A stretch of 63,416 nucleotides of DNA, counting the filler, from Craspedostauros australis (lineage: Eukaryota): assembly GCA_030167865.1 (NCBI GenBank). It is 12 parts of 12 records of this genome, joined end to end, with 100 filler letters (N's around TTAATTAATTAA, not from the genome) between each part and the next. Parts side by side here need not be neighbours in the genome. Positions count along the whole stretch, not along the records: positions 30,480 to 36,091 come from JALAGF010003389.1; 11 more parts are not named here. The stretch is one strand, 5' to 3'. Position numbers and translations under genes: made by a program. Shown here one piece after another: positions 24,891 through 54,661 of the stretch (positions are counted from its first letter, which is position 1; the number at the start of each line of letters is the position of its first letter). Below the pieces are notes generated by a model. That model was not told the origin of the DNA. It saw only the letters and a program-made list of their open reading frames with translations, and searched no databases.

Positions 24891-25909
24891 TGGCTATTCC
24901 TTGTTGGTCTTCTCGATCGTGAAGTCGTTGCCACAATGCAAAATAGAGTAGGTTAGAGAAGAATTGAATACCCCACGCTTCTCAAGTCCGGAGTACTCTG
25001 CGGAGCAAGACGATTTGGCGCATCTCCGCGAATCCATACTCGCACATTCGGTGATAAATCCCGCACGCCGCAACCAACTCCATCCTTGTTTGTACCATAC
25101 GTAGATATGGACAGCAGCATTGGGTGCCCACTACCATTGTGTGGTACTGATGCGTTCATCTGCGTGGGGCATTCGGAGATGAGGCCGTCCGCGCAGCAAG
25201 CGCTTTCGATAGCTTTGGTGGATGAAGAGCTCATCGATTCCACGTGCGAGCGAGGGGTTTCGCTACTCGTGCATACGACTACTCCTGATGCACATCTTCG
25301 TCTTCACATTGCCGCTGTGACGGTAGTCATCTTGTGAAATCGAGTGGAGACTGGCTCCATGTCGGACTCTACCCCCACGCATCCGTCTCCGCCGTGGTGC
25401 ATCCAGGCGATTTCGTCATGAGCAGCAATACATCTTGCCTTGTGTGCGCTGACTTGAATGGGATAGAGAAAACGAAAGCAGAACAAAGTAGAGTAGAGGA
25501 GAGTATATCGCTCTATTGGTTGGGAGTAAGTTAGCAGAGTATGGCACGAGTAGGTGTGGTAACACGCTCGCCCAACGAACGGATCCGCAGTTGGATCGGT
25601 TNNNNNNNNNNNNNNNNNNNNNNNNNNNNNNNNNNNNNNNNNNNNTTAATTAATTAANNNNNNNNNNNNNNNNNNNNNNNNNNNNNNNNNNNNNNNNNNN
25701 NATGGTACAAACAAGGATGGAGTTGGTTGCGGCGTGCGGGATTTATCACCGAATGTGCGAGTATGGATTCGCGGAGATGCGCCAAATCGTCTTGCTCCGC
25801 AGAGTACTCCGGACTTGAGAAGCGTGGGGTATTCAATTCTTCTCTAACCTACTCTATTTTGCATTGTGGCAACGACTTCACGATCGAGAAGACCAACAAG
25901 GAATAGCCA

Positions 25910-28520
25910 ATGCAAGGGGCAACCGAGAAAGGAAGACAGCATCCCCCCTTGCCATGGTTGCGGCATGATCCATTGAACGGCCGCCCGGAAATACGATACT
26001 CCATTGGGCTTTGCATGGCCGAACCGCGCACTCTGTCAGCGATGCTGCTGCTTTGTTGTCCAGTTGGTCTGTGCGATCGCGTTTGTGATGATATTGGTGA
26101 TGCCGTGACGCTCATGTTGATGCTGGCCGACCGCGCAGCGCCACGCCGAGTTGCGGGCAATGCTGCGCCGATGATGCCTGGCGACAAAGTGAGTCTCACA
26201 AACGCAGGACGATGAGATCCTTGCAGCTGAAACGATGCTGACAAGGAAGCTAAGCCAAGACTCGAAACCCCATCGACCGTCGAAGGTGAGGAGGTGCCGC
26301 AACCAGTGCGATTGTCCAAATCCGAGGCGGAGGCAGAGGTAGAATATATCCCAGACGACAAACTCGAGGACGACACGGAGGCGGCAGCCAAGATCCACGA
26401 CAAGACCGAAGTCGCAGGCGATGATGAACTGAGCGAGCAACCGGCATCGTTGACCCAGCCAGAGATAGTTGCTGTGACCGAATCAGAGGTCGCCATCGAC
26501 GCCTACATTTCACAAGCACCTGAAGTCGACCAGGAAGTAGAATGTGTTGATGCGCAACAAGGCGACGTTCTGCAACAGGAACTGTTCGAATATGGTGAAG
26601 ACTTGGGGCCTGCGTTGGAGGGCGAACTGGAGCCATCATCTTCCATCGAGATCTACCAAGATGCAGAATCGGATATCGAACGAGATATCAAGGACGATGC
26701 GAATGACGATGATGGTGCTGCTGAAATTGAAGCAGCCACATCACAAGTCGATGAAGGCTTGGAATCTCAGTCCGTTCTCGATTCGGACACTGTTACATCT
26801 GGAGCGGATGTGCGACGTCCAGTCGTGAACGAGGAAGATGCTGAGCCCGTGGCTCTGCAGGATGCCCCACTGGCCGTGAAGTCTGACAAAGATGAAGACG
26901 AAGCCACCATTCGCGACAGCGACGACAAGCAAAACGATGATGTAGCAGGTTTGGAGAAGCATGCTAACACAGCAGCGCTGATTGGAGTTGCAGTGGTTGC
27001 GGCAACAGGAGCTGGGGTTCTTGACACCACGGATGACCAAAGTGAAGAAGGAAACGCGGAAGAGTTCAAGCTGGAGCCAAAGGTGGAGGAGCATCCCGAA
27101 CAGAATGCACTCGACTCAATCACACTCCTTGACGCTGCAACACCTGCAGACAACGAAGATGAAGACGACTTGGTCCCGCCTGCGTCCGCTCCAAGCTTCA
27201 TGCGAGGCACACAGCCAGGCAACGAGTACGTGGACATGCCTAACAAGGCGATGGAACACTCCGCAAATCTTTTGCCGGACAACAACGAGGATGTGGATGC
27301 TGACGCTGATGATGACGACGTAACCGAGGATTCCGTCGCAGAAGCTGAACAGTTGACAGCGATTGCGGATGCCTTGAAATCAGAGCCATCTGTCAGCTCC
27401 AAAGGGCACGACGACCGTGACGCCGAAGTCGACTCAAAGTCTACAGAGACATTCCAGTCTTCTCAAATGCTTGAGACCGAGCATGGCACCGACACTGCGC
27501 AAGTTATCGATGCCACAGCACGTGCGCTCGACCTGCCGGAGGAGATCAGGCCATGCCAAGACGTCAAGGCTGATTCTTTGGAGGACTTTTTTCCGCTGCA
27601 GAGTCCGAGCCAGAAGATGACGCAGAATCACCGACTGCGCCCGTGCTGACCGAAGACGCAAGGTCCAACAACGAGGCCGACAAGAAGACCAACGAGTTCG
27701 CACCAAAAGAAACGAAGTGGACAGATGTCGAGCCAGAGGATGAATCCAAACCGGAAGTGGAAGAAGTCAAGATGTCTGCTCTGAAGGTTGCCAGGGTGGA
27801 AGAAGACGAGGAGGCAGCGCTTGAGCATGCGCTTGTGCTGCTGAAGAGGCTCACTCAGGCTACGGATGCGGACGTGCCAGCATCAGAGTCGGCCGCCGCT
27901 GACAGTACTGGAGAAGAGGATCGTCAGGAAGCAGGTCTTGAGCGTGGGCTCCTGTTGCTCCAGACCTTCAATCAAGAGGAGGACATGTCACAGGCAAATG
28001 CAATGGCTAACAGCTCCGACGACGACAAAGACAATAAGGAAATGGAGCTCTCATAAGTCCTCGAACGAGGAGCAAGGTTGGAGGTGCATGCGCAACCAAT
28101 GAAGACGTCAACTCTGACATCGGAAGACAAGAGTATCATGCGTGACGATACAGACGTGGGCCATGATACCAATCGAGAGGTAGTGGCTGACGAAGACGGG
28201 GATGCCACAAATGAAACTGCTTCCGCCACTGATACTCCTAACCGAGAATAGCAGGAACGCGCAAGCTCAATCATTGCGGAAATGGCCGCGTTCGTCGTGG
28301 ACGCCAAGGTTATCATCCAGCCAGCACCCAAAGCTCCAACCCATGATGCCCATGGTGCCGACGGCAATGGTAGTGATGGTGCCATCGTCAACGAAGACAA
28401 GCAAATCATGAGCGAAGCGTTCACGACACGTTATGCACACCAGACAGACTGAGCCAGCAATGCGTCCCATGATGATACCGAGGGCTTAATTTCGCACCCA
28501 GAAAAGGGCGAATGCTTTGG
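25910..28520 (+). pseudogene. Acidic low-complexity protein pseudogene (second view of 22280..24890)
   Basis: ORFs 26294..27649 and 27643..28056; in-frame TAA at 28054-28056, then TAG and TGA further on. Confidence 0.6.
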
Positions 28521-30379: not shown

Positions 30380-30479
30380 NNNNNNNNNNNNNNNNNNNNN
30401 NNNNNNNNNNNNNNNNNNNNNNNTTAATTAATTAANNNNNNNNNNNNNNNNNNNNNNNNNNNNNNNNNNNNNNNNNNNN

Positions 30480-31250
30480 CACCGGAGTCCTACTGTACCT
30501 GAACTCATCACCCATCCTATGGCACAGCAAGAAACAAAACAGCATCGAGACGTCCACGTTCGGCAGCGAGTTCACCGCGCTCAAGGTAGTGACAGAGATC
30601 GTTGTCGGGATGCGTTACAAATTGTGTATGATGGGCGTCCCAATGGACGGCCCGACGGACATGCGCGTCGACAACCAGAGCGTCGTGTACAACGCCTCAC
30701 TCCCCGCATCACAGCTACGAAAGAAAGCCAACTCAATTGCATATCACTTCGTCCGAGAAAGCATCGCGGCGGGTGTGATGACCGTCTCACATGCGCCATC
30801 AGAGACCAACCTCGCTGACATGCTCACGAAGCCACAATGAGGACCAAGACGGACAGCCCAGGCACAATGCGTCTTATTCTAACACACAGACTGCGCGACA
30901 GTACCCATGGATGGCCGGCCACGGATTCAATCCGTGGTGGATGGGATGAGCGCCCTGTGGTGCCCACGCATGGGGCATGCAGCAGGTACATACCATATGA
31001 AGCAGAAATGTGACGATCCGACAGTCAGCAAAGCCACAGCGAATCGAGGGGACCAAACAGAGATACATGTGAAACGGTTAAAACGGGATTAACATGCGAA
31101 CACGGGCATCGCCCAACCACGGGAGGCTGGAGTACTCTCTGACGATCCTACACGACCCTATAACCCTTATAATCTGCATCCTTTGGGTTTGCAACCCTCA
31201 ATACCAATGCATGTGTGTGTTAACTTGGATCCAACGGCTGAAGATCACAC
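30480..31250 (+). mobile_element. 3' end of a second Copia lineage (RNase H plus 3' region/probable LTR); 30480..31467 is the reverse complement of 36192..37179
   Basis: PILWHSKKQNSIETSTFGSEF, RVDNQSVV, LRKKANSIAYHFVRE, NLADMLTK. LTR limits uncertain. Confidence 0.85.
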
Positions 31251-31749
31251 TGTTTGTTGTTGGGTGGGATATACGGTAAATAAAATATATATCTCACTTT
31301 CTGCGGACGTCTTTCTCATCGTCACAGCACATGTTGGAAGGAGTATCGACGCAACGCTCAAACGGAGCCTTTGGAGGCCGCTGGTGGATACGATTACAGT
31401 GTACAGTAGAGAGGTGTGTACTCGCATGGCATTGCCCTCCGACCGACCTCTTCTGCTACTCGTACTTTACCCATCGCCTTCCGAGGGTGCGATCTAGCAT
31501 GCGATCAAGCATGCGATCATAGGAGCGAATGTGTCTACCTTGCCTTCTGTTTCTCTGTTTGCATTGAAGACGCATTCCTCGATGTCTTGTTGGTAGTTTG
31601 CCTTCCGAGCATGCGATCATAGCATGCGATCATAGGGGCGGATGTGTCTGTCTTGCCATCTGTTTCTCTGTTTGCATTGAAGATTCATTCCTCGATGTCT
31701 TGTTGGGGGTTTGCACTCCACCCATCGCCTTCCAAGGGTGCGACCTAGA

Positions 31750-31995
31750 CTGCGATCATAGCATGCGATCATAGCATGCGATCATAACATGCGATCATCA
31801 CATGCGATCATAGCATGCGATCATAACATGCGATCATAACATGCGATCATAACATGCGATCATAACATGCGATCATAACATGCGATCATAACATGCGATC
31901 ATAACATGCGATCATAGAATGCGATCATAGAATGCAATCATAGAATGCGATCATAGAATGTGATCATAGAATGTGATCATAGAATGCGATCATAG
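31750..31995. repeat. 13-bp minisatellite (CATGCGATCATAA/G)n
   Basis: About 18 tandem copies, with extra copies inside a ~120-bp duplication at about 31495-31745. Confidence 0.95.
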
Positions 31996-32574
31996 GAGCG
32001 GATGAGGATTACCGCTTTGGCTATTCGCTCCGTGTCCCATGATAAAGAACATCTGCGAAAGTAGAAAGATGAGTGTCAGAGTGCATGGTACGAGTACAAA
32101 GTAATCGGAGATTTTGATTTCTACGAGTACAGCGTGTGCGATGGGGGACGACACAGCATCAATACGTGCGCTGTGGTACGAAAGGGTACCACTTCTGATG
32201 GTTGACACCTCAACTGCCCACTATCACCGTCACGGATGCAAATGACAAACGTGGTGCAAATGCCACCACGACCTCACTGATGAGTGCGATCAAGGGATTG
32301 TTGCTGCAGAGAAGCGAAGTTGCTCTCTCTGCCTCGCCCAACATTGATCTTGTTGACATGCCTGAAATCGTTTGGAACATCTGATTTCCTCGCCCTCACA
32401 ATACATCAACACCGTCATCCATTAACCACCACCACTCACAATCTCGAGAGAGACAGAGAGAGAGAGAGAGCTCAAGTTTCGCAGGTGCCATTCACATCTT
32501 CGTCACTGGCGTGACCGACACAAAACTCACTTGCACAGCCGCAGTTGCCGCCGCAGCCACATTCATACGCAACA

Positions 32575-35500
32575 ATGGATGACAAGACAAAACATGATGC
32601 GTCTGCTAAACTTGCACCACCAATCCCTGCTGCCCCCTCTGAGCCAGAAGCGTCTGAAGCAGACATGCAAGCCAACATGCAAGCAGACGTGCAAGCAGAC
32701 ATGCAAGAAGACATGCAAGCCAACATGCAAGCCAACATGCAAGCCAACATGCAAGCCAACATGCAAGCCAACATGCAAGCCAACATACAAGCCAACATGC
32801 AAGCAGACGTGCAAGCAGACATGATGGCTGAAACACAAATGGAATTGCAAAGGGTTTTGCAACTGTTGCAAACTCAAACACCAAGAGTTCAAGGCAACCC
32901 TGATGAAAGCACAAGGAATCAAGTATATGTTCCAGTTGCAGAGGTCGTCCCTGAAAATGATGATAATCCTGAACCATATTCTCGGAGGGCAGGATGGAGC
33001 TGGAAAGGTACTGTTACTGTGGTGTTACTCGTCGTCGGTGTAGCCGGTACCATTGCAGCAGGCGTAGTGTTCCTCCTAAGTGACGAGACCAGCAGCAGCA
33101 AAGGCAACAGCAACAGCAACATAGATGGCAGCAGTAGGAATCAGCCCACCACAAATGGCCCTAGTGATCGGCCATCACAAAATCCAACCCACACACCCAC
33201 GGATACACCGAGTGATCCACCCTCACAAAGTCCAACTCACACACCCACGGATACACCGAGTGATCTACCCTCGTCGAACCCAGCGTACAGCTTCGATCAA
33301 TCGAATGCTTTCTTCACCATTTGGGAGGTGCTCCTGCCCACACTCCAAGAAGAGCCTACCTTCATCGATACAACCATACTCGCAAGCCCAACCAGTACTG
33401 CACACCAGACGCTGAACTGGATGGCAAACAGCAACCACCCAGATCTCGCATCAATGATCGCAGAAGATGCACAGGCCAATGCCACGCGTCTATTGGAGTA
33501 CTATGCAGTAGTGAGCATATACTTTTCACTCGATGGAGCCAATTGGAACGACAAGATGTGCTTTCTATCAGTTACTGACGTGTGCGATTGGCACTCTTCC
33601 TCTGGCGGTGTGACATGCGATAATGGCCATGTGGTACAAGTAGCTTTGGGTGACGAAGGCATGCGGGGCACGCTCGATCCAGCCCTTTATCATCTCTCAC
33701 ACCTTGAGAAATGGTCAATGGAAATGACTTCCAGCACTCGCGGACAGATCGATGGTATCATCTTCAGTCATATTGGCATGTTGAGTATGCTATCAGAGCT
33801 AGCTCTAGTGTCCATGGGACTGCGAGGTGCGTTTCCGTCAGAAATGTATCAACTTACACAATTGACACATCTTGACCTGGGTTTCAATTGCATCACTGGA
33901 CCCCTTCCTTCTCAGACTGGTCAACTGACAGCTCTCGCCTCTCTTGATCTGAGAAACACCGACTTCACTGGACAGATTCCATCCGAGATTGGTCAACTGA
34001 CAGCGCTCGTCTATCTTGAGCTAGGATACACCAACTTCACTGGACAGCTTCCATCCGAGATTGGTCAACTGACAGCGCTCACCTATCTTGAGCTAGGATA
34101 CACCAACTTCACTGTACAGCTTCCATCCGAGATTGGTCAACTATCAGCTCTCACCACTCTTGATCTGGGATATGCCGACTTCACTGGACAGCTTCCATCC
34201 GAGATTGGTCAACTGACAGCGCTCGTCTATCTTGATCTAGAAAGGACCAATTTCATTGGACAGCTTCCATCCGAGATTGGTGAACTGACAGCTCTCGTCT
34301 ATCTTGAGCTGGGATACACCGACTTCACTGGACAGCTTCCATCCGAGATTGGTCAACTGACAGCGCTCACCTATCTTGATCTGAAAGATGTTGACTCCAC
34401 TGGACAGATTCCATCCGAGATTGGTCAACTATCAGCTCTCACCACTCTTGATCTGGGAAATGCCGACTTCACTGGACAGCTTCCATCCGAGATTGGTCAA
34501 CTGACAGCGCTCGTCTATCTTGATCTAGAAAGGACCAATTTCATTGGACAGCTTCCATCCGAGATTGGTGAACTGACAGCTCTCGTCTATCTTGAGCTGG
34601 GAGACACCGACTTCACTGGACAGCTTCCATCCGAGATTGGTCAACTGACAGCGCTCACCTATCTTGATCTGAGATCTGTTGACTCCACCGTACAGCTTCC
34701 ATCCGAGATTGGTCAACTATCAGCTCTCACCACTCTTGATCTGGGATATGCCGACTTCACTGGACAGCTTCCATCCGAGATCGGTCAACTGACAGCTTTG
34801 AGATTTCTTAACCTGGAATTCACCGATCTCACTGGGCGCTTTCCGTCCGAGATTGGTCAGCTGACAGCGCTCACCTATCTTGATCTGAGATCTTTTGACT
34901 CCACCGTACAGCTTCCATCCGAGATTGGTCAACTATCAGCTCTCACCACTCTTGATCTAGGATGGACCGACTTCACTGGACAGCTTCCATCCGAGATCGG
35001 TCAACTGACAGCTTTGAGATTTCTTAACCTGGAATTCACCGATCTCACTGGGCGCTTTCCGTCCGAGATTGGTCAGCTGACAGCGCTCACCTATCTTGAT
35101 CTGNNNNNNNNNNNNNNNACTGGGCGCTTTCCGTCCGAGATTGGTCAGCTGACAGCGCTCACCTATCTTGATCTGAGATCTTTTGACTCCACCGTACAGC
35201 TTCCATCCGAGATTGGTCAACTCACAGCGCTCACCTTCCTTGATCTGAGATACACCGACTTCACTGGACAGCTTCCATCCGAGATTGGTCAACTCACAGC
35301 TCTCGCCCATCTTGATCTGTATTCGACCGACTTCACTGGGCAGCTTCCATCCGAGATTGGTCAACTCACAGCGCTCACCTTCCTTGATCTGAGATACACC
35401 GACTTCACTGGACAGCTTCCATCCGAGATTGGTCAACTGACAGCCCTCACTTTTCTTGATTTGGGACCTACTGAATTCACTGGGCAGCTTCCATCCGAGG

Positions 35501-35763
35501 TTGGTCAGCTGACAAAACTCACCTTTCTTGATCTGGGACCTACTGACTTCACTGGACAGTTTCCATCCGAGGTTGGTCAACTGACAGCGCTCACCATTCT
35601 TGATCTGGGATATGCCGACTTCACTGGACAGTTTCCATCCGAGATTGGTCAACTCACAGCGCTCACCTATCTTGATCTACAAGGGACCAATTTCACTAGA
35701 CCGCTTCCAACTCAGCTTGGCCTCCTCACATCATTGGAAATAACCGGAATTTCCGGAATCTAA
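32575..35763 (+). CDS. Type-II single-pass membrane LRR receptor-like protein (about 1,060 aa; repeat number uncertain)
   Basis: N-terminal (MQAN/D)n; TM TVTVVLLVVGVAGTIAAGVVFLL; P/S/T stalk; LRRNT-like cap (LDGANW..CDW..GVTC); about 27 plant-type 24-aa LRRs GQLPSEIGQLTALxxLxLxxTDFT. 15-N gap at 35104-35118. Confidence 0.92.
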   Translation: MDDKTKHDASAKLAPPIPAAPSEPEASEADMQANMQADVQADMQEDMQANMQANMQANMQANMQANMQANIQANMQADVQADMMAETQMELQRVLQLLQTQTPRVQGNPDESTRNQVYVPVAEVVPENDDNPEPYSRRAGWSWKGTVTVVLLVVGVAGTIAAGVVFLLSDETSSSKGNSNSNIDGSSRNQPTTNGPSDRPSQNPTHTPTDTPSDPPSQSPTHTPTDTPSDLPSSNPAYSFDQSNAFFTIWEVLLPTLQEEPTFIDTTILASPTSTAHQTLNWMANSNHPDLASMIAEDAQANATRLLEYYAVVSIYFSLDGANWNDKMCFLSVTDVCDWHSSSGGVTCDNGHVVQVALGDEGMRGTLDPALYHLSHLEKWSMEMTSSTRGQIDGIIFSHIGMLSMLSELALVSMGLRGAFPSEMYQLTQLTHLDLGFNCITGPLPSQTGQLTALASLDLRNTDFTGQIPSEIGQLTALVYLELGYTNFTGQLPSEIGQLTALTYLELGYTNFTVQLPSEIGQLSALTTLDLGYADFTGQLPSEIGQLTALVYLDLERTNFIGQLPSEIGELTALVYLELGYTDFTGQLPSEIGQLTALTYLDLKDVDSTGQIPSEIGQLSALTTLDLGNADFTGQLPSEIGQLTALVYLDLERTNFIGQLPSEIGELTALVYLELGDTDFTGQLPSEIGQLTALTYLDLRSVDSTVQLPSEIGQLSALTTLDLGYADFTGQLPSEIGQLTALRFLNLEFTDLTGRFPSEIGQLTALTYLDLRSFDSTVQLPSEIGQLSALTTLDLGWTDFTGQLPSEIGQLTALRFLNLEFTDLTGRFPSEIGQLTALTYLDLXXXXXTGRFPSEIGQLTALTYLDLRSFDSTVQLPSEIGQLTALTFLDLRYTDFTGQLPSEIGQLTALAHLDLYSTDFTGQLPSEIGQLTALTFLDLRYTDFTGQLPSEIGQLTALTFLDLGPTEFTGQLPSEVGQLTKLTFLDLGPTDFTGQFPSEVGQLTALTILDLGYADFTGQFPSEIGQLTALTYLDLQGTNFTRPLPTQLGLLTSLEITGISGI
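32660..32823 (+). repeat. 12-bp coding repeat (GCCAACATGCAA)n encoding MQAN/MQAD
   Basis: About 13 copies read directly from the sequence. Confidence 0.9.
33898..35700 (+). repeat. 72-bp coding tandem repeat array (LRR modules)
   Basis: Nearly invariant TTCCATCCGAGATTGGTCAACTGACAGC every 72 bp. Confidence 0.95.
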
Positions 35764-36409
35764 TTCACTCCAATGGTCTCAACACAACTGGCCAAGCTTA
35801 TGAGCCCATTCAGTCACAAACCAACGAGTCACAGGGGGAGCAGTCTACTACTCCGCTCGGACGAGTTTGCAGCACCTTGCCGGCTCGCAGTTCGGTTGGA
35901 TGCCGTTCAGTGTTTTGGGAGCCGCGGCAATTTTGGAGAGAGCCCTTTGCAATGACGTTCCCGGCAAGCCTGACAGGTTGTCACGTTGCTGGACATGATG
36001 ACGTGGGTTGAAATGTCTGCGACCTTTGAACTTTCTTCGAGCTCCTTTGTGCATACCATATACTGAGTACCTTGGTGTGATACTACAAATTNNNNNNNNN
36101 NNNNNNNNNNNNNNNNNNNNNNNNNNNNNNNNNNNTTAATTAATTAANNNNNNNNNNNNNNNNNNNNNNNNNNNNNNNNNNNNNNNNNNNNAAGTACGAG
36201 TAGCAGAAGAGGTCGGTCGGAGGGCAATGCCATGCGAGTACACACCTCTCTACTGTACACTGTAATCGTATCCACCAGCGGCCTCCAAAGGCTCCGTTTG
36301 AGCGTTGCGTCGATACTCCTTCCAACATGTGCTGTGACGATGAGAAAGACGTCCGCAGAAAGTGAGATATATATTTTATTTACCGTATATCCCACCCAAC
36401 AACAAACAG

Positions 36410-38329
36410 TGTGATCTTCAGCCGTTGGATCCAAGTTAACACACACATGCATTGGTATTGAGGGTTGCAAACCCAAAGGATGCAGATTATAAGGGTTATA
36501 GGGTCGTGTAGGATCGTCAGAGAGTACTCCAGCCTCCCGTGGTTGGGCGATGCCCGTGTTCGCATGTTAATCCCGTTTTAACCGTTTCACATGTATCTCT
36601 GTTTGGTCCCCTCGATTCGCTGTGGCTTTGCTGACTGTCGGATCGTCACATTTCTGCTTCATATGGTATGTACCTGCTGCATGCCCCATGCGTGGGCACC
36701 ACAGGGCGCTCATCCCATCCACCACGGATTGAATCCGTGGCCGGCCATCCATGGGTACTGTCGCGCAGTCTGTGTGTTAGAATAAGACGCATTGTGCCTG
36801 GGCTGTCCGTCTTGGTCCTCATTGTGGCTTCGTGAGCATGTCAGCGAGGTTGGTCTCTGATGGCGCATGTGAGACGGTCATCACACCCGCCGCGATGCTT
36901 TCTCGGACGAAGTGATATGCAATTGAGTTGGCTTTCTTTCGTAGCTGTGATGCGGGGAGTGAGGCGTTGTACACGACGCTCTGGTTGTCGACGCGCATGT
37001 CCGTCGGGCCGTCCATTGGGACGCCCATCATACACAATTTGTAACGCATCCCGACAACGATCTCTGTCACTACCTTGAGCGCGGTGAACTCGCTGCCGAA
37101 CGTGGACGTCTCGATGCTGTTTTGTTTCTTGCTGTGCCATAGGATGGGTGATGAGTTCAGGTACAGTAGGACTCCGGTGTGCGATCGTCGCGTTACCTGG
37201 TCACTGGCATGGTCAGCATCAACGAAGCAAGTCATCTGGACCTCTTTTCCACGTGGTGTTGGCATGTCGTTCGGTATCTGTTCGTGGGCGTCGGAATAGA
37301 AGTCGCCCCACTCCGGTTGTATCACAGCGGGTTTATCAACGTATGCATCATCAAAGACAAGACGAGAACGATCGTGTGAGTTCAAATAGGCAAACATGTG
37401 GAAGAGCGTCTGTAGGTGACCCGTACGTAGCGCAGCACAATAGGAGGACATCATGGATGTTTCAAAGCATATGTCGATTCGACCCAGTTCAACGGTCCAG
37501 CGCAGGATCCCAATCAGTTGCTGGTAGAACGCCATCTCTTCTGCGTCACACAACGGTGTTGCATCCAATTCGGGTCGATATCCATTTGGTATCACGCTGG
37601 GTGCCCTTGTTTTGAGGCGCCCCTGTCAGTCTGTGAGCCATTTTGTGACGATCTTGATAGCGGCTCGTATGTATGCTCGTGATCCCATGCTCGATTTGGG
37701 ACGTGTTGCATCAGGGTCAATGTGGTATGGCGCGATAGTGGAGCCGAGCTAAGTAGTAGGAGGGCCAATGAACCTTGCCTTGAGGAAGAAGTGTGAGCCA
37801 ATTGCATCTAGGATGTGCTGGGGTTGTTTGGACACCGCAAGGATGTCGTCTGTATACACAAGTACATATTCATAATACTCTGACCCGTTGCTCGCTACAG
37901 CTGGTTTCATCCAGACGTCGCTGTCAGCACGGCAGGATGTGTATCCCATCGAATCGCGTAGTGTCTCAGCCAGATGCGCGTGCCAAGCGGCTCCGCTGGA
38001 CTTCAGACCATACAAGGCCCGACAGATGACGGCGATTTTGCCCTGATCAGATCCGAACTCGGGTCTGCATCATGTGTATATGCGTTCCCTGCACATTGCA
38101 TTCAATTATGCATTCTGGACATCGGCGGCCAGTATGCAGAGATCGTTCAGTGTGGCAAGCATGAACGCAATGCGTACACTTTCTCGTGATACCACACTCG
38201 CATAGGTAATGGCCGCTGGTGCTTCTGGCATGTGGCCACCAGCCACCAACCGTGCTTTGCGTGTGAGGTCCACTTTCACTGTGAAGATCATGTGACATTC
38301 CATGTATTGGTGTCCAATCGGGTTGGGGG
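36410..38329 (-). mobile_element. Second Copia lineage, decayed RT-RNase H
   Basis: CHMIFTVKVDLTRKARLVAGGH, TYASVVSRESVRIAF, ALYGLKSSGAAW, YVLVYTDDIL, VELGRIDI, FVDADHA, NLADMLTK. In-frame stops and frameshifts. Confidence 0.92.
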
Positions 38330-38523: not shown

Positions 38524-38628
38524 TCTCTNNNNNNNNNNNNNNNNNNNNNNNNNNNNNNNNNNNNNNNNNNNNTTAATTAATTAANNNNNNNNNNNNNNNN
38601 NNNNNNNNNNNNNNNNNNNNNNNNNNNN

Positions 38629-40806
38629 CATGCCACTCAGCGCATTCTTGCCGACATCCAGGGTCGTGAGCCTTTGGCAATCACCGATCTCTGAGGGAAT
38701 AGGACCCACCAAGCCATGATCTCTCATTCTCAGACCTTTCAGATTTTGAAGCAGGCCGATCTCGCTTGGAATCACGCCTGTGAGCCGAGCCCCGGTCACC
38801 CGAATCTCTTGCAGCCTGGACATGTCGCTGATGTGCGAAGAGATGGTTCCCGTGATGTCACTCACATCGATCTCGAGCTGGCGCAGATTCAGGAAGTAGA
38901 ACGAATCTGGCAGACTGCCAGCCACGTTGTTGGTTGACAGCTTCACTGCAGTCACCGTTCCCAGGTCGCATTCAACACCGATCTCGTTGGCATCATCGAA
39001 CCAGTCGCAGTGGTCAACACCCGTCATGAATCCCGCCCGCAAGAACCAGTTGGGGCCATTCATTGACAGGTACATGTCGAGCAAGGCGTACCGTTCCAAA
39101 AGGAACCGCGAGATGCCTGGAAGGTTCGTGTCCAAGGACTCTTGCGTGCTTTGGTCGGAGAGCGTCATCCATTCCGCGATCTTGAAGGTGGTGCTGTTCT
39201 GGTCCGTCCAGACGGAGTCGTCGAGGAATGCGGGCGGTCCTCTCAGCGTTGGACCGATGATGTCCCGGATCTGAGTGAAGGCTTCGAACTGGAGGATGTA
39301 CATGGTGGGGAATGATGAGGGAGTGATTGTTGGTGCCGATGTTGGTTGTGATGTGATGGTGGGTTGCGAAGTTGGCTGGGCGCTGGGTTGTGAGGGATCG
39401 AGATCTGGTGAGTTGGAATCACCGCCACCAACGACCAGGAAGACAATGACGCCGACAGCAGCGACGACGATGACGAAGATGACCGCCATGATGGTCAACC
39501 GTCTCGTGCGTGCAACCTCCTGTTGGTGTTTGCGCAGCATTGCGTCTGACGGAGTTGCACCATCAGCACCGGATGCGCTTTCTGTATCGACCACAGCAGT
39601 GGCTGTCGCGAGGACAACTGCCGGATCGATAGCGGCACCCGTCTGCGTCCTCTCTCGAAGTTCTTGCGCCAAACGACTTTCATATTCTCGCTCGATTTCT
39701 GCACGGAAGTTCTGTCTGAGCTCATCGTCGGGGACGGCGGGTTCTGCGATTGGCGCCGCATCTTGCGTGCCACTGGCATCGATAGAAGGGGCCTGCTCCT
39801 GTTCTTGCTGTGACTGTTCTTGCTGTGACTGTTCTTGCTGCCCTTGCGACTGGCTCGAGGTCGCAAGGCTGACCGTGGGAGCCTCGCTGTAGGACTCCAC
39901 ATCAAAATCGCCGAAGTCGCGCCCAAGCCGAATGGCGCCAGTACCGCTTCGTTCGTGGACGTCGTTGGCGTTGTTGCTCACGATCGAATCCGCCGTAATT
40001 GTGGCCGTGTCCGTATCTTCGTAGGGGAAGAGGCTCGTTGGAATCTCGGTATTGTTTCTCACCCGCATCGCTCCCGGAAGCGTCGGATGGTCTCTTGCGC
40101 GCATGGCTGCACGGTCCCGGGGTGCCTGCGAGTCCTGATCCTGCGGCGACGGCACCCGGACTACTCCATCCTTGGTGATGATAACATCCGTCCCGTCCGG
40201 CTTCAGCTTGTCATCTCTGCCTTGTGGGAAGAGGCCCGTTGTTTTAAGGTCCTTCTCATCCTTATCGTCCTTGGTGTGCTTCATTTTTGCTTTGATGTCT
40301 TTGTCATTATAGTTGTCAACATAGTTGTAATCGTCGCCTTCGAGGTGGTATCGCTGGAGCGGAGCTTTGCCATGGTCCGAATGGCGGCGCATCTCGGCAG
40401 GTTGATGCTGAGACTTGCTTGGGCTTGGCGTGTTGACCGATCTGACATCATCCAGAGATCTGCTTCTACGCAGCATGGTTCTGCGCAGCATAGCCCTGCG
40501 ATCTTCAGCTGCACCGAAATCAGCGACGGCATCAGAGTCCATGAATCTCACGGATGACCGCCCAATTGGATTTGTTGCGAAGGTCGTTGCATCAACCTCA
40601 CCGCTGTCCACGGAGATCGACCGATCCTGCGGATTTCCCTCCGTCCGAACGTCACCATTGGCACCGTTGTCGTCATTGCCGTTGTCGCCGGTATCCCCAT
40701 TGTTGTGGTTGTGATGTCTCAGCGAACCTCCCGTGCCATCTCCGCTCTCCGTTCGGCCATCACGGTCGCCGTTCTGACGAAGGTCGTCCTGATCTCGGCC
40801 ATCCAT
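38629..40806 (-). CDS. Type-II membrane LRR receptor-like protein, N-terminal variant 1 (3'-truncated at contig end)
   Basis: Disordered N-terminus with PGAMRV; RRLTIMAVIFVIVVAAVGVIVFLVV TM; QPT/S stalk; ERYALLDMYLSMNGPNW..DHCDW cap; LTGVIPSEIGLLQNL LRRs. Confidence 0.9.
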
Positions 40807-41522
40807 GTTGTAGTTGCTGGTATTGGGATGGATGAGCAGAGCATGCGAGTATGGTGAGAGGTGCTGATAGCAAATAATAGAAGAGAATATAATAATTTAT
40901 GAGCGTACACGTGCGATCTACTCTTGCGTTTGTGGTGCAAGTTGCTGCCATTGTTTGCGCTTCGTCCAATGTTCCGTCTTTTCATTCTTCCATTCCCCGA
41001 AGCCGTTTGCGGCTGTCGAACAAAGATGTCAGTGTGACCGTGCGTGTTCAGCACGAAAGTTGGTCCCAAGAACGACAGTGATCAATTGTTGATGGACTAC
41101 CTGGACTAAATGAGGACAACAGAGTGTCCTGATTGTCCATTTCTGTTGTATCAAGCTTCTCGGTCCAAAACTGTCGCAAACAAGTTATTTGTCTGAACTG
41201 ACTTTCGGACGATTTCGACCTTCTTTTGTCAGAAAGCTCCTGTTTTCGAATCGTCCTGTCACGAATGGGACTGGAAGAGTCACACGAAGTTGTCCCGTTT
41301 TGCGACATCCGTCGCAACTCGTCCAGTGTTTGGTGTTGGCGCCACGCTTGCCCCCTGGCGGTGACTCTCTACGTAGGTCGTCCAGCACGATTACAAACTG
41401 TCTGGAGAAGTGCCTTGAGTCTAACTTACGAGCTGGAGTATAGAAATATGTGCATGCCGAAGCTTCGATTGAAGACGAAGGAAGACAAGGTGAAGCGATG
41501 AGGCAATCAATCGACCAACCGA

Positions 41523-42778
41523 TCAACCACCCCTCTCCAACCAATCGAAGTATAGCTCCGTCCTGGGCTCGCACGCGCCTGTTCCAACATCCCGGATGCA
41601 CGATCGTTCACACCGAGTGTTTCCATTGTCCAGGCACGCCTCGCAGCTCGTTTCGTAATGGCCGCCTCCGCATGCGATGCATTCACCGTTACATTGTATT
41701 GGCTGTCGATCCTGCTTGGGGCACTCGTTCGTGGTGCTGGTGCAGCAGACGTTGCAACATGAGCATATCACCTTGGGAGGGATGCCAAGCTCGTCAGGCT
41801 CACAATCGCTGGTGAATCGTTCGAAGTTCGCCTCCCACCTGAAGTTGTCAGTACAAAATATGGGATCCAGGTTGCCTGTGATGTTCGTGAAGATCAGATG
41901 GAAGGTTTGCAGCTGCCCTAGCTGATTCAAGTGAGTGGGAAGGGTGCCCTCGATGCCATTGCGATCAATCCGCAATGTCGCCAAGCTCTCCAGTCTACCA
42001 ATCTCAGATGGCACCATGCCACTCAGCGCATTCTTGCCGACATCCAGGGTCGTGAGCCTTTGGCAATCACCGATCTCTGAGGGAATAGGACCCACCAAGC
42101 CATGATCTCTCATTCTCAGACCTTTCAGATTTTGAAGCAGGCCGATCTCGCTTGGAATCACGCCTGTGAGCCGAGCCCCGGTCACCCGAATCTCTTGCAG
42201 CCTGGACATGTCGCTGATGTGCGAAGAGATGGTTCCCGTGATGTCACTCACATCGATCTCGAGCTGGCGCAGATTCAGGAAGTAGAACGAATCTGGCAGA
42301 CTGCCAGCCACGTTGTTGGTTGACAGCTTCACTGCAGTCACCGTTCCCAGGTCGCATTCAACACCGATCTCGTTGGCATCATCGAACCAGTCGCAGTGGT
42401 CAACACCCGTCATGAATCCCGCCCGCAAGAACCAGTTGGGGCCATTCATTGACAGGTACATGTCGAGCAAGGCGTACCGTTCCAAAAGGAACCGCGAGAT
42501 GCCTGGAAGGTTCGTGTCCAAGGACTCTTGCGTGCTTTGGTCGGAGAGCGTCATCCATTCCGCGATCTTGAAGGTGGTGCTGTTCTGGTCCGTCCAGACG
42601 GAGTCGTCGAGGAATGCGGGCGGTCCTCTCAGCGTTGGACCGATGATGTCCCGGATCTGAGTGAAGGCTTCGAACTGGAGGATGTACATGGTGGGGAATG
42701 ATGAGGGAGTGATTGTTGGTGCCGATGTTGGTTGTGATGTGATGGTGGGTTGCGAAGTTGGCTGGGCGCTGGGTTGTG
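41523..42778 (-). CDS. LRR receptor-like protein, core plus C-terminal variant 1 (5'-truncated at contig end)
   Basis: Same core, then SDCE...VICSCCNVCC cap and an extra Cys-rich tail (CNGECIACGGGHYETSCEAC). Confidence 0.9.
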
Positions 42779-42878
42779 NNNNNNNNNNNNNNNNNNNNNN
42801 NNNNNNNNNNNNNNNNNNNNNNTTAATTAATTAANNNNNNNNNNNNNNNNNNNNNNNNNNNNNNNNNNNNNNNNNNNN

Positions 42879-45800
42879 CATGCCACTCAGCGCATTCTTG
42901 CCGACATCCAGGGTCGTGAGCCTTTGGCAATCACCGATCTCTGAGGGAATAGGACCCACCAAGCCATGATCTCTCATTCTCAGACCTTTCAGATTTTGAA
43001 GCAGGCCGATCTCGCTTGGAATCACGCCTGTGAGCCGAGCCCCGGTCACCCGAATCTCTTGCAGCCTGGACATGTCGCTGATGTGCGAAGAGATGGTTCC
43101 CGTGATGTCACTCACATCGATCTCGAGCTGGCGCAGATTCAGGAAGTAGAACGAATCTGGCAGACTGCCAGCCACGTTGTTGGTTGACAGCTTCACTGCA
43201 GTCACCGTTCCCAGGTCGCATTCAACACCGATCTCGTTGGCATCATCGAACCAGTCGCAGTGGTCAACACCCGTCATGAATCCCGCCCGCAAGAACCAGT
43301 TGGGGCCATTCATTGACAGGTACATGTCGAGCAAGGCGTACCGTTCCAAAAGGAACCGCGAGATGCCTGGAAGGTTCGTGTCCAAGGACTCTTGCGTGCT
43401 TTGGTCGGAGAGCGTCATCCATTCCGCGATCTTGAAGGTGGTGCTGTTCTGGTCCGTCCAGACGGAGTCGTCGAGGAATGCGGGCGGTCCTCTCAGCGTT
43501 GGACCGATGATGTCCCGGATCTGAGTGAAGGCTTCGAACTGGAGGATGTACATGGTGGGGAATGATGAGGGAGTGATTGTTGGTGCCGATGTTGGTTGTG
43601 ATGTGATGGTGGGTTGCGAAGTTGGCTGGGCGCTGGGTTGTGCGCTCGGTTGAGCGGGCTCCAGACCCGCTGTATTCGAACCGTCTGCGCCACCTCCGGA
43701 TGAGTTGGAACCACCGCCACCAACGACCAGGAAGACAATGACGCCGACAGCAGCAACGACGATGACGAAGATGACCGCCATGATGGTCAATCGTCTCGTG
43801 CGTGCGACCTCCTGTTGATGTTTGCGCAGCATTGCGTCTGACGGAGTTGCACCATCAGCACCGGATGCGCCTTCTGCATCGACCACAGCAGTGGCTGTCG
43901 CGAGGACAACTGCGGGATCGATAGCGGCACCCGCCTGCGTCCTCTGTCTGAGTTCTTGCGCCAAACGACTTTCATATTCCTTCTTGACTTCCGCGCGGAA
44001 GTTCTGTCTGAGTTCATCGTGAGACACGGCGAGTTCGGCAGTCAGAGCAACATCTTGCGTGCCACTGGCATCCATAGAGAGGGTCTGCTCCTGCTCCTGT
44101 TCTTGCTGTCCTTGCGACTGGCGTGAGGCTGTAATACTGACAGTGGGAGCCTCGCTGTGGGACTCCACATCAAAATCGGCGAAGTCGCGCCCAAGCCGGA
44201 TGATGCCTGCGCCTCTTCGTTCGGGGAAATCGCGAGCGGTGTCATTCATGATTAAATCTTCGGTAACGCTGATCATGTCCGCATCTTCATAGGGGATGAG
44301 ACTCGTTGGAATCTCTGTGTCGTTGCTCACCCGCATCGCTCCCGGAAGTGCCGGGTGGTCTCTTGCGCGTCGGGCCGCACGATTCCGGGGTGCCTGCGAA
44401 TCCTGATCCTTCGACGACGGCACCCGGACGACTCCATCCTTGGTGACGATGACCTCGGTCCCGTCCTGCTTCAGCATATCATCTCTGTCTTGTGGGAAGA
44501 TGCTCCTTGCTTTCGAGTCCTTCTCGTCCTTGGCCTGGCTCTTTTTTGCCTTGGCGTCTTCGTCATCATAGTTGTCATCAAAGTTGTGGTTGTGGTTGTC
44601 ACCATCCCCCATGTCCAGGTCGATTGAGCGGAGCTGTCGCCCGGAGTCCTCTCTCGTGACGGCCTGCAATATCTCGTAGTATCGCTGGTGCGAAGCGTTG
44701 CCATGGTCCGAATGACGGCGCATCTCTGCAAGGCGACGACGAGACTGGTTTGAGCGTGCCGTGTTGACCGATCTGCCTCCATCGAGAGAGCCGCTTCTGC
44801 GCAGCATGGCCCTGCGGCTGGTGCTGCTGTTGCTGACAACGGTTGACGCGCCGGCCGTTGAGAAGGAATGGTTGCGAGTCCGAGGATGGAACGAGGATGA
44901 CGATGACGACAATTGACGGCTGCGTCGGCGATCGACCTCTCCGGAGGAGTGGGATCTGCGCAACGGCGTGAAGCTCCCGTTTTGATTTGCCAGTTCCACG
45001 ACACTCAACGCGGCGAGCACTTCGGCGTCCACGAATCCGACCGACGACCGCATCGTGAGTTCCGTCACCATCGTGGCCGTGTCGGCGGCGTCATCTATGA
45101 ATTGGATATTGTTGATGGCGTGCGGGGCAACCCCATCACCGCTGTTGAAGCTGTAACGTTGGTTGGGAGAGGTGGAGTTGCTCTGGCCCAGATCGACAGT
45201 GCGAAGCTGCCTCCCCGAATCTTCCCTCGTGATGGCCTGCAAGATCTCGTCGTATCGTTGATGCGACACATTGCTGAAGTCGGAAGGCCTTTGGAATGGC
45301 GCATCGAATTCGCCGGAGGCCGAGGTGGTCACCGGATCGAAGCCGCTGCCGGAGCCCCCGGTGCTTCGCAGCAGCCGCCTTCGTAGGCTGGCCGTGCTGT
45401 TTCGGGGCGCTGCCGAGGGTCGAGCACTGGAGTAGGGCGATGAAGGTGCTCGGTCTGTCTGCCTGGAAGAGTCTCGGGACGATTGCGATCTGCGCAGCCG
45501 TGAGGGTCGAATGCGTTCCTGCGCTGCCGCACTTGCGCTCGTGGCTGTGTCCCCTCCCATGGAAGGAGCTCTGCTCATCGACGCACCCCCGGCTGCGGTC
45601 GAATCAGCGATGGTGTCGAAGTCCATGAACCTCACGGAAGAACGCGCAGTTGGATTTGTCGCGAAGGTCGTTGCGTCAATCTCATCGCCGTCCACGAAGC
45701 TGGGCCGATCCCGTGTGTTCACCTCCATCCGAACGCGACTATTGTCATTGACGTTGTCATTGACATTGTCATTGATGCCCATGTTGGCGTTCTGCGGATT

Positions 45801-54561: not shown

Positions 54562-54661
54562 NNNNNNNNNNNNNNNNNNNNNNNNNNNNNNNNNNNNNNN
54601 NNNNNTTAATTAATTAANNNNNNNNNNNNNNNNNNNNNNNNNNNNNNNNNNNNNNNNNNNN

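What the first reader, a model, noticed from the sequence alone, without database searches (positions are those of the whole stretch)
33898..35700. LRR receptor built from shuffled 72-bp cassettes with hypervariable exposed residues
Seen: about 25 modules with an almost invariant DNA backbone, while the xxLxLxx positions vary widely (VY-E-GY, TT-D-GY, VY-D-ER, TY-D-KD, RF-N-EF, TY-D-RS, AH-D-YS, TF-D-GP). Modules recur in 4-unit (288-bp) then 3-unit (216-bp) blocks with chimeric units. The canonical LRR Asn is replaced by T/A/V/F and there is no C-terminal Cys cap. Known: those positions form the concave ligand-binding face, and lamprey VLRs and brown-algal LRR-ROCO genes diversify by module shuffling. 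Inference: a recombination-diversified recognition receptor (immunity or cell recognition) in a unicellular alga.
Basis: partly seen in the sequence, partly recalled or inferred. Interest (0 to 1): 0.72.

Follow-up and report, generated by a model that had tools for sequence, protein, structure and literature searches.

The report
Diatom surface LRR protein, expanded repeats
This is a diatom gene for a membrane-anchored leucine-rich-repeat surface protein whose repeat array grew by ordinary tandem duplication, with most amino-acid change on the predicted binding face; this pattern is already known from plant and other diatom LRR genes.

Summary
An uninterrupted ORF (32575-35763, +, 1062 aa) carries a 72-bp tandem array: TRF gives 24.8 copies at 80% match. 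It encodes about 25 plant-type 24-residue LRRs, with 4-, 3- and 2-unit blocks duplicated at 97-100% identity.

Amino-acid variation is concentrated at positions 5, 6, 8, 10 and 11. There dN is 0.60, against 0.10 elsewhere. Two points were overstated:
- The backbone is 89% identical, not almost invariant (backbone dS 0.27).
- Omega at the exposed sites is 1.45, and its bootstrap range (0.71-2.98) includes 1.

The protein has a cytoplasmic N-tail, one TM helix, a Ser/Thr/Pro stalk, an LRR N-cap and the LRR array, so it is probably type II. It has no kinase.

Relatives are diatom TM-LRR proteins, 25-40% identical. A paralogue in the window has six LRRs and a Cys-rich C-cap. This gene lacks the cap and ends at an in-register TAA.

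No donor cassettes, introns or Roc-COR were found, so it is neither VLR-like nor Ectocarpus ROCO-like. The closest mechanism is intragenic recombination, as in tomato Cf-2/Cf-5. A 15-N gap inside the array and a fragmented assembly leave the unit count and order uncertain.

Verdict: a new member of a known kind, of modest interest.

The parts
32575..35763 (+). Coding sequence of the LRR protein (1062 aa, ATG to TAA); continuous frame, no intron needed
   Evidence: ORF list and translation; Pfam LRR_14 E 1.6e-95, LRR_1, LRR_4, LRR_8 on residues 1-842
32575..33006 (+). Predicted cytoplasmic N-terminal tail (about 144 aa), with a 12-bp repeat at 32663-32816 coding (MQAN/D)n; no Pfam domain
   Evidence: TRF period 12, 12.8 copies; translation; no non-LRR Pfam family at E<=0.01
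33007..33078 (+). Single transmembrane helix (GTVTVVLLVVGVAGTIAAGVVFLL). RR..K lies on the N-terminal side, so the N terminus is inferred to be inside the cell (type II)
   Evidence: Kyte-Doolittle 19-residue maximum 2.72 at residue 149; this is the only hydrophobic stretch, 13 windows above 1.6, listed from residue 143. Orientation is inferred from the positive-inside rule
33079..33279 (+). Ser/Thr/Pro-rich stalk with a 48-bp repeat (33163-33272)
   Evidence: TRF period 48, 2.3 copies. Contigs of run X1 show 48-bp repeat-number variants and a 189-bp length variant here (table 5)
33280..33852 (+). N-terminal cap domain of the LRR solenoid (LRRNT-like, CDW..GVTCD motif) plus irregular first repeats
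   Evidence: 32% identical to the paralogue's cap. Nearest Atlas clusters are from Bacillariophyta. 2493 cluster representatives at E<=0.001
33853..35724 (+). LRR array: units 0-25 of 72 bp / 24 aa, consensus LTALxxLxLxxTxFTGQLPSEIGQ
   Evidence: Register table; TRF; per-codon table; solenoid model with a strand at unit positions 6-8 and a helix at 20-24
34141..34716 (+). Two copies of a 4-unit (288-bp) higher-order block: units 4-7 and 8-11
   Evidence: 1, 0, 1 and 6 nt differences between matching units; lag-288 identity 0.92-1.00
34717..35103 (+). 3-unit (216-bp) higher-order block: units 12-14, then 15-17a, running into the gap
   Evidence: 12 vs 15 differ by 4 nt and 13=16; lag-216 identity 0.94-1.00
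35104..35118 (.). 15-N assembly gap inside unit 17. The head matches the unit 14/18 type and the tail matches the unit 13/16 type, so the number of units is uncertain
   Evidence: Sequence; head/core/tail typing
35221..35436 (+). 2-unit periodicity: unit 19 is identical to unit 21, with unit 20 between them
   Evidence: 0 nt differences; lag-144 identity 1.00
35725..35763 (+). Degenerate last unit. It is cut by TAA (35761-35763) at unit position 13, and the next codons (FT..V...L) stay in LRR register. No Cys-rich cap follows
   Evidence: Translation through the stop; three-frame translation and tblastn with relatives' caps
30480..31467 (+). 3' end of a Copia-type retroelement, about 1.1 kb upstream of the start codon. 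Context only, not part of the gene
   Evidence: 100% identical over 988 bp to the reverse complement of 36192-37179. The ORF is letter-identical to the end of the 36819-37595 (-) ORF

Best explanation
This is a germline-encoded cell-surface LRR protein of a diatom. It has a short cytoplasmic N-tail, one membrane helix, a probably glycosylated Ser/Thr/Pro stalk, an N-cap, and a long acidic solenoid of about 25 plant-type 24-residue LRRs facing outward. It has no kinase or other signalling domain.

The array was built recently in evolutionary terms, by unequal crossing-over or gene conversion between 72-bp modules. That left 4-, 3- and 2-unit duplicated blocks. After duplication, amino-acid change accumulated mainly in the strand and the loop after it, which line the concave face (positions 5, 6, 8, 10, 11, and also 12). 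Scaffold positions stayed under purifying selection.

It most likely binds an extracellular ligand on that face, acting as a receptor-like or adhesion protein, and it would need a partner protein to signal.

Shown: gene structure, repeat anatomy, block duplications, where the variation lies, fold class, and family relatives.
Inferred: membrane orientation, the recombination mechanism, and ligand binding.
Unknown: the ligand and the biological role.
For: - Continuous ORF of 1062 codons.
- Pfam LRR families only, on residues 1-842.
- The best sequence matches among solved structures are plant LRR receptor ectodomains: GSO1 E 6.7e-125 and FLS2 E 3.2e-107.
- An AF2 single-sequence model gives a regular solenoid over the LRRs with block pLDDT about 70-95. 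Foldseek top hits are RGFR1, FLS2 and MIK2 ectodomains, E about 1e-20.
- One hydrophobic helix, and an LRR part with pI 4.05.
- Block duplications at 97-100% identity.
- Nei-Gojobori: exposed codons dN 0.60, dS 0.41; the other 19 codons dN 0.10, dS 0.27, omega 0.37.
- Among recently duplicated units there are 12 codon changes in 720 nt compared, 9 nonsynonymous and 3 synonymous. 5 of the 9 nonsynonymous changes fall in the five a-priori exposed codons (binomial P 0.023). 4 of 9 fall in codon 11 (post hoc).
- All four allele combinations occur at 105 of 703 informative site pairs, which fits exchange between units.
- Diatom relatives have the same tail-TM-cap-LRR layout: P0065 from Cyclotella cryptica, P0131, and the paralogue in the window.
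- Seminavis robusta P0089 also has near-identical units, in a 5-unit block.
- Tomato Hcr2 genes are reported to evolve by intragenic recombination that varies the number of 24-aa LRRs, with nearly identical nucleotide repeats in Cf-2 (PMC7468133, passages read).
Against: - Omega at the exposed sites is not significantly above 1 (bootstrap 0.71-2.98). The N/S contrast between exposed and other codons is borderline (21/6 against 16/15, Fisher P 0.056).
- The gene lacks the Cys-rich C-terminal cap that all four relatives read have: P0065, P0089, P0131 and P0137. It ends at an in-register stop, so it may be truncated.
- Unit order and number rest on a fragmented assembly with a gap inside the array. 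They could not be checked against long reads.
- Expression was not shown.
- The four-gamete signal can also come from recurrent mutation.
Confidence: 0.68

Rival explanations
1. The gene is a truncated, decaying or mis-assembled copy. It lost its C-terminal cap, through a nonsense change in the last repeat or a nearby rearrangement, in a transposon-rich and poorly assembled region. Part of the block pattern would then come from alleles or close paralogues being assembled in tandem.
For: - TAA sits in LRR register at position 13 of unit 26, and the LRR-like frame continues past it.
- No cap is found in any of the three forward frames up to the contig end, while 4 of 4 relatives read have one.
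- There is a 15-N gap inside the array.
- The window is a chain of short contigs joined by 44N-TTAATTAATTAA-44N spacers.
- Neighbouring contigs overlap redundantly: 988 bp at 100%, and the paralogue is split over four overlapping pieces.
- Run X1 holds at least three variants of the unique cap region, 90-98% alike (table 8).
Against: - A 1062-codon frame stays open through 25 repeats.
- Scaffold codons show purifying selection, omega 0.37.
- Duplicated blocks differ at a few sites rather than being identical throughout.
- An X1 contig (record 8), about 97% alike, spans the stop region. The rows shown in the truncated difference table include no change at the stop codon.
Confidence: 0.2
2. Programmed or somatic diversification, the strong form of the first reader's reading. 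Modules would be rearranged within a clone, as in lamprey VLR assembly, to give a repertoire of receptors.
For: - Near-identical modules are a good substrate for recombination.
- Mitotic interhomolog recombination is reported to generate diversity in clonal diatom cultures (bioRxiv 10.1101/2020.11.08.373134; only the search listing and the start of the abstract were seen).
Against: - There are no donor cassettes: 0 module matches outside the array in 63 kb of window. However, only about 5.6 kb of that is truly contiguous with the gene.
- The gene is already complete.
- No LRRCT or other VLR parts are present.
- No read evidence of rearranged forms was seen; no joints were listed inside the array, though the contigs were too short to show them.
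Confidence: 0.03
3. The protein is structural or adhesive rather than a signalling receptor. A long, very acidic solenoid held on a stalk would act in cell-cell or cell-substrate adhesion or in binding cations or the matrix. Repeat number would then matter mainly for length.
For: - The LRR part has pI 4.05, with 76 D+E against 16 K+R. Position 8 is acidic in 22 of 24 units, and positions 13 and 21 are also mostly acidic.
- There is no signalling domain.
- The authors of the Pseudo-nitzschia study suggest the TM-LRR proteins MRP2 and MRM2 are pheromone receptors or adhesion molecules (PMC6261938, passages read).
Against: - Variation concentrated on concave-face residues suggests selection on what is bound, not on length alone.
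- There is no direct evidence either way.
Confidence: 0.09

Closest known systems
Diatom transmembrane LRR proteins without a kinase (for example MRP2 and MRM2 of Pseudo-nitzschia multistriata; expanded LRR families in Seminavis robusta and Nitzschia putrida)
   Same: - Plant-type 24-residue LRRs with the ..FTGxLPSExGQLT.. backbone, one TM helix and no kinase.
- Relatives found in Cyclotella, Seminavis, Cylindrotheca and Pseudo-nitzschia.
- Seminavis P0089 also has near-identical units in a 5-unit block.
- Papers, passages read: PMC6261938, PMC7335047, PMC9054022.
   Different: - At most about 40% identical to anything found.
- About 25 units, against 6 in the paralogue in the window.
- Asn at position 12 in none of the 23 readable units.
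- No Cys-rich C-terminal cap.
- One-to-one relation to MRP2 or MRM2 was not tested, because their sequences were not at hand.
Tomato Hcr2 receptor-like proteins (Cf-2 / Cf-5)
   Same: - Cell-surface LRR proteins without a kinase.
- Their 24-aa LRR arrays contain nearly identical nucleotide repeats and change unit number by intragenic recombination (PMC7468133, passages read).
- This is the closest match in how the array evolves.
   Different: - No family membership is claimed. Those proteins have a signal peptide and a C-terminal TM (type I; domain legend in PMC7468133), whereas this one has an N-terminal TM.
- The lineage and the flanking domains are different.
- Here neither allelic copy-number variation nor a ligand is shown.
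Ectocarpus LRR-ROCO and LRR-kinase genes (Zambounis et al. 2012, PMC3341825)
   Same: A stramenopile with repetitive LRR modules, where positive selection is reported on concave-face residues (passages read).
   Different: - Those arrays are encoded by repetitive exons that are shuffled, and they are joined to Roc-COR.
- Here the array is one uninterrupted ORF with no Roc, COR or kinase.
Lamprey variable lymphocyte receptors
   Same: An LRR solenoid with variable concave-face residues, built from module-sized units.
   Different: - VLRs are assembled somatically from flanking donor cassettes into an incomplete germline gene, and they have Cys-rich caps (description in PMC6868369, passage read; the rest is recalled).
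- Here there are no donor cassettes in the window, the germline gene is complete, and there is no C-cap.
Plant LRR receptor kinase ectodomains (GSO1, FLS2, RGFR1, PEPR1)
   Same: Best sequence and fold matches, in the same 24-residue LRR class.
   Different: No kinase, opposite membrane orientation, no LRRNT_2 Pfam hit, and Thr instead of Asn at the ladder position.

Membership tests
Plant-specific (24-residue) LRR class | Repeat period of 24 residues | tested here: met
   TRF period 72 bp with 0% indels; register table
Plant-specific (24-residue) LRR class | Conserved Leu skeleton LxxLxLxx(N)xL followed by xGxIPxxLG | tested here: met
   L1, L4, L7 and L9 are invariant, F/L/S at 14, G16 in 20 of 24 units, P19 and G23 invariant
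Plant-specific (24-residue) LRR class | Asn at the ladder position (position 12 here) | tested here: not met
   T15 A4 V2 F2, so N occurs in 0 of 23 readable units. The paralogue also has S, A, H, N, N, T there (my reading of the translation). That Thr, Ser or Cys are tolerated at this position is recalled, not tested
Plant-specific (24-residue) LRR class | Curved solenoid fold like solved plant ectodomains | tested here: met
   AF2 model; Foldseek RGFR1/FLS2/MIK2 E about 1e-20, TM-score on query length 0.45-0.62
Diatom TM-LRR proteins without a kinase | One TM helix plus an LRR domain, and no kinase | tested here: met
   Hydropathy; Pfam gives only LRR families on residues 1-842; the rest reads as LRR units
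Diatom TM-LRR proteins without a kinase | Cys-rich C-terminal cap after the last LRR, as in 4 of 4 relatives read | tested here: not met
   No cap in any of the three forward frames of 35700-36091. tblastn with the four C-terminal pieces found no cap there; its only hits in this gene were the LRR portions of two queries matching the array
Diatom TM-LRR proteins without a kinase | Orthology to a named member (MRP2 or MRM2) | not tested
Only the description in the paper was read
VLR-type somatically assembled receptor | Incomplete germline gene flanked by donor LRR cassettes | tested here: not met
   The ORF is complete. All 20 module-core matches lie inside the array and none elsewhere in the window. 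Only 5.6 kb is truly contiguous with the gene
VLR-type somatically assembled receptor | Rearranged forms within one clone | not testable with these tools
   The only run found gave contigs of 118-577 nt in this region
Ectocarpus-type LRR-ROCO | LRR array encoded by repetitive exons, which are shuffled | tested here: not met
   The frame is uninterrupted through all units
Ectocarpus-type LRR-ROCO | Roc-COR GTPase module | tested here: not met
   No Roc or COR hit at E<=0.01
Tomato Hcr2 (Cf-2/Cf-5) receptor-like proteins | Type I layout: signal peptide, LRRs, C-terminal TM, short tail | tested here: not met
   The TM helix is at residues 145-168, N-terminal to the LRRs
Tomato Hcr2 (Cf-2/Cf-5) receptor-like proteins | Nearly identical 24-aa LRR units at the nucleotide level, produced by intragenic recombination | tested here: met
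   Blocks at 97-100% identity. This is a likeness in mechanism only

The most novel reading that the evidence does not exclude
The near-identical 72-bp modules may recombine often enough during the long mitotic phase of the diatom life cycle that clonal populations carry a mix of array lengths and orders. That would give a population-level repertoire of surface-receptor variants, halfway between the plant Cf-2/Cf-5 allelic series and true somatic diversification, with selection acting on the Tyr/Phe-rich variable face.
Probability: 0.1. Interest if true: 0.7.

Novelty: new member of a known kind. Interest (0 to 1): 0.3.

Why it matters
Diatoms carry large families of surface LRR proteins that nobody has characterised. 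These proteins are candidates for sensing bacteria, viruses or mating partners.

This gene is a clear example of one such receptor-like protein expanding from a few repeats to about 25 by intragenic duplication, with change focused on the likely binding face. That makes it a reasonable target for strain-level long-read surveys.

It does not reveal a new mechanism. The same evolutionary behaviour is documented in tomato Cf-2/Cf-5, and it is visible in a Seminavis LRR protein.

Tried and rejected
- Whole genome: none is held for this window, so family size and locus context beyond the 5.6-kb contig could not be examined.
- Public runs: one holder only (X1), sharing 0.20 of the sampled words. No RNA holder is listed.
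- X1 laid on 32400-36091 gave short contigs 90-100% alike. Of the 8 records listed, 7 are 118-183 nt and one is 577 nt. They cannot bridge more than two units, so they say nothing about array order, copy number or expression. Parts without cover are not evidence.
- Metagenome scan with a 22-nt invariant module core: one hit (L001, 1473 bp). It is an unrelated LRR-coding fragment with a broken frame, not a copy of this array. No cross-strain comparison was therefore possible.
- Protein searches seeded with LRR-containing regions were swamped by generic LRR hits from plants and bacteria. Only the cap-only searches were informative about kinship.
- Earlier-findings look-ups by place and by sequence returned nothing.
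- The antisense ORF 34957-35652 (231 aa) lies wholly within the 72-bp repeat array, and I read it as a by-product of the repeat.
- An intron that would skip the stop codon was considered. No GT occurs in the 104 nt before the TAA (35657-35760); the nearest is in TTGGTCAAC at 35650-35651. This is my reading of the sequence, so such an intron is unlikely but not excluded.
- No literature search was run on whether higher-order 72-bp blocks in diatom LRR genes have been described, so no claim is made about what is in print on that point.
Full report
**1. What is there**

Bases 32575-35763 on the + strand form one uninterrupted reading frame of 1062 codons. Tandem Repeats Finder reports an array at 33893-35678 with period 72, 24.8 copies, 80% matches, no indels and score 2031. 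A 32-nt core of the unit matches 20 times with at most 3 mismatches. All matches lie inside 33973-35660 on the + strand, none occurred in 100 shuffles, and there is no copy elsewhere in the 63-kb window. Read in register from 33853, the array gives units 0-25 of 24 residues, consensus LTALxxLxLxxTxFTGQLPSEIGQ, followed by a truncated unit 26. The array is real and far beyond chance.

**2. Where the variation lies**

- Among units 1-24, L1, L4, L7, L9, P19, S20, E21 and G23 never change.
- The most variable positions are 11 (8 residues), 6 (6 residues), 10 (5), 5 (4) and 12 (4).
- The usual LRR asparagine at position 12 is absent. It reads T15, A4, V2, F2, so N occurs in 0 of 23 readable units.
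Mean pairwise identity is 0.891 in codons 1-4 and 15-24, against 0.710 in codons 5-14. 30 of 72 columns are invariant and the longest invariant run is 6 nt.
- Nei-Gojobori estimates over all unit pairs, for the a-priori exposed codons (5, 6, 8, 10, 11): dN 0.60, dS 0.41, omega 1.45, bootstrap range 0.71-2.98.
- For the other 19 codons: dN 0.10, dS 0.27, omega 0.37.
- Minimum change counts are 21 nonsynonymous to 6 synonymous at exposed codons, and 16 to 15 elsewhere (Fisher P 0.056).

Replacement change is therefore about six times denser on the predicted binding face, and the scaffold is under purifying selection. Positive selection is not demonstrated. Relaxed constraint fits equally well.

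**3. Higher-order blocks**

- Units 4-7 and 8-11 differ by 1, 0, 1 and 6 nt, a 288-bp block.
- Units 12-14 repeat as 15-17, with 12 and 15 differing by 4 nt and 13 identical to 16. This is a 216-bp block.
- Unit 14 equals 18, and unit 19 equals 21.
- Ten comparisons of recently duplicated units (720 nt) show 14 nt differences in 12 codons, 9 nonsynonymous and 3 synonymous.
- 5 of the 9 nonsynonymous changes fall in the five exposed codons (P 0.023). Post hoc, 7 of 9 fall in codons 10-12 and 4 of 9 in codon 11.
- All four allele combinations occur at 105 of 703 pairs of informative sites. This fits exchange between units, although recurrent mutation could contribute.

**4. Reliability of the assembly**

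The window is not one piece of chromosome. Eleven spacers of 44 N, TTAATTAATTAA and 44 N divide it into contigs, and this gene lies on a 5.6-kb contig (30480-36091).

A 15-N gap (35104-35118) sits inside unit 17. Its head is of the unit 14/18 type and its tail of the unit 13/16 type. That 'chimeric unit' is therefore an assembly join, and the true number of units is unknown.

Neighbouring contigs overlap redundantly. 30480-31467 is 100% identical over 988 bp to the reverse complement of 36192-37179.

The one public run that shares sequence (X1) gave only short contigs in this region, 118-183 nt apart from one of 577 nt. These cannot test unit order. X1 does show at least three variants of the unique cap region, 90-98% alike, and length variants of the stalk repeat. 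Close alleles or paralogues therefore exist and could have confused the assembly.

**5. The protein**

- Pfam finds only LRR families on residues 1-842: LRR_14 at E 1.6e-95, plus LRR_1, LRR_4 and LRR_8. No kinase, Roc, COR, TIR or NB-ARC was found.
- Hydropathy gives a single membrane helix at residues 145-168, with RR..K on its N-terminal side.
- The layout is: acidic tail of about 144 residues with an (MQAN/D)n repeat, the helix, a Ser/Thr/Pro stalk with a 48-bp repeat, an LRR N-cap with a CDW..GVTCD motif, then the LRRs. I infer a type II orientation with the LRRs outside the cell.
- The LRR part is very acidic: pI 4.05, with 76 D+E against 16 K+R.
- By sequence, the nearest solved structures are plant receptor ectodomains: GSO1 at E 6.7e-125 and FLS2 at E 3.2e-107.
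- A single-sequence AlphaFold model has mean pLDDT 70.1. The cap is poorly modelled, and the LRR blocks score about 70-95.
- The model shows a regular solenoid with a short strand at unit positions 6-8 and a helix at 20-24. Its best Foldseek matches are RGFR1, FLS2 and MIK2 ectodomains.
- Placing positions 5, 6, 8, 10 and 11 on the concave face follows from this register and from general LRR geometry.

**6. Relatives**

- Searches that include LRRs are swamped by generic hits, but the named eukaryotic microbial hits are diatoms: Cyclotella cryptica, Seminavis robusta, Cylindrotheca and Pseudo-nitzschia.
- The nearest Atlas clusters of the cap are Bacillariophyta.
- Nothing found is more than about 40% identical.
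- P0065 (Cyclotella) and P0131 show the same tail-TM-cap-LRR order.
- The window holds a paralogue spread over four overlapping contig pieces: 38629-40896 (-), 41523-42778 (-), 42879-46001 (-) and 47867-49164 (+).
- The paralogue has a long cytoplasmic region, a TM helix, the same kind of stalk and a cap 32% identical to this one. It has only six non-repetitive LRRs and a Cys-rich C-terminal domain.

**7. The missing cap**

All four relatives read (P0065, P0089, P0131, P0137) end in a Cys-rich motif. This gene has none. tblastn with the four C-terminal pieces found no cap downstream of the array, and none of the three forward frames of 35700-36091 codes one.

The TAA at 35761 sits at position 13 of a degenerate unit, and the next codons (F-T, then V and L at the expected spacing) stay in LRR register. 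This looks like a premature end relative to the family. It could be a natural cap-less form or the start of decay.

**8. How unusual it is**

Near-identical internal LRR units are common. These include the diatom proteins P0065, P0089 and P0148 as well as plant and cyanobacterial proteins. Seminavis P0089 has a 5-unit block built on the related backbone ..FTGSLPSELGQLT...

In tomato, Hcr2 genes (Cf-2, Cf-5) are described as evolving by intragenic recombination that varies the number of 24-aa LRRs, with nearly identical nucleotide repeats in Cf-2 (PMC7468133, passages read).

Diatom papers report expanded LRR families (PMC7335047; PMC9054022). They also report transmembrane LRR proteins without a kinase, MRP2 and MRM2, proposed to be pheromone receptors or adhesion molecules (PMC6261938), and LRR receptor-like genes with Ka:Ks above 1 (PMC5485032). 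Only passages of these papers were read.

The Ectocarpus case differs in design: its LRRs are encoded by repetitive exons and joined to Roc-COR (PMC3341825, passages). The VLR case needs donor cassettes (PMC6868369, passage). Neither design fits here.

**9. Verdict**

This is a diatom surface LRR protein whose array was shaped by module-level recombination and whose variable residues line the likely binding face. It reflects ordinary germline evolution of a known kind, not a dedicated diversification system. Function and ligand are unknown. I rate it a new member of a known kind, with interest about 0.3.

Noticed in passing
window 8274-8373, 14175-14274, 20943-21042, 25602-25701, 30380-30479, 36092-36191, 38529-38628, 42779-42878, 47767-47866, 54562-54661, 60268-60367: Eleven spacers of 44 N + TTAATTAATTAA + 44 N. 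The 12-mer was read at only one of them, 36136-36147. The window is therefore a chain of separate short contigs, and adjacency across spacers means nothing.
   Followed up: partly
window 38629-40896 (-), 41523-42778 (-), 42879-46001 (-), 47867-49164 (+): One paralogous TM-LRR gene appears in four overlapping contig pieces. They share a letter-identical core (stalk, cap, first LRRs). There are two different cytoplasmic N-terminal regions and two C-terminal Cys-rich domains 66% identical. This looks like two alleles or paralogues whose shared core broke the assembly.
   Followed up: partly
window 30480-31467 and 36192-37179: 988 bp at 100% identity in opposite orientation, covering the 3' end of a Copia-type retroelement. 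The element ends about 1.1 kb upstream of the LRR gene's start codon.
   Followed up: partly
window 405-4413 and 8778-12786: Two stretches with the same series of ORF lengths (339, 384, 285, 460 aa). The first carries gag-pre-integrase, retroviral SH3-like and RVT_2 hits. These are probably two copies of one Copia-type element. They were not aligned.
   Followed up: no
window 14855-19417 (-): A 1520-aa open frame whose only Pfam hit is AAA_16 (E 1.7e-15). It may be a STAND-type NTPase.
   Followed up: no
window 60316-62064 (-): A 582-aa open frame with an Arf-family GTPase domain (E 2.3e-39) at residues 123-293, so it has long extensions on both sides.
   Followed up: no
window 23151-24569 (-) and 26231-27649 (+): Two 472-aa open frames on opposite strands of neighbouring contigs. 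The one scanned against Pfam (23154-24569) had no hit; the other was not scanned. They are probably the same repeated element. They were not aligned.
   Followed up: no
window 31751-31995: A 13-bp tandem repeat with 18.8 copies, plus a 113-bp repeat at 31496-31714. Both lie between the retroelement end and the LRR gene.
   Followed up: no
window 33096-33286 and 33184-33279 (run X1): Contigs of the one public run show a 189-bp in-frame length variant and 48-bp repeat-number variants in the Ser/Thr/Pro stalk. Stalk length appears to differ between close copies.
   Followed up: no
window 33853-35724, unit positions 8, 13 and 21: Almost every repeat carries acidic residues at positions 8 (D/E in 22 of 24 units), 13 and 21. 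The solenoid would therefore carry continuous acidic stripes (pI 4.05). The meaning of this is unknown.
   Followed up: partly
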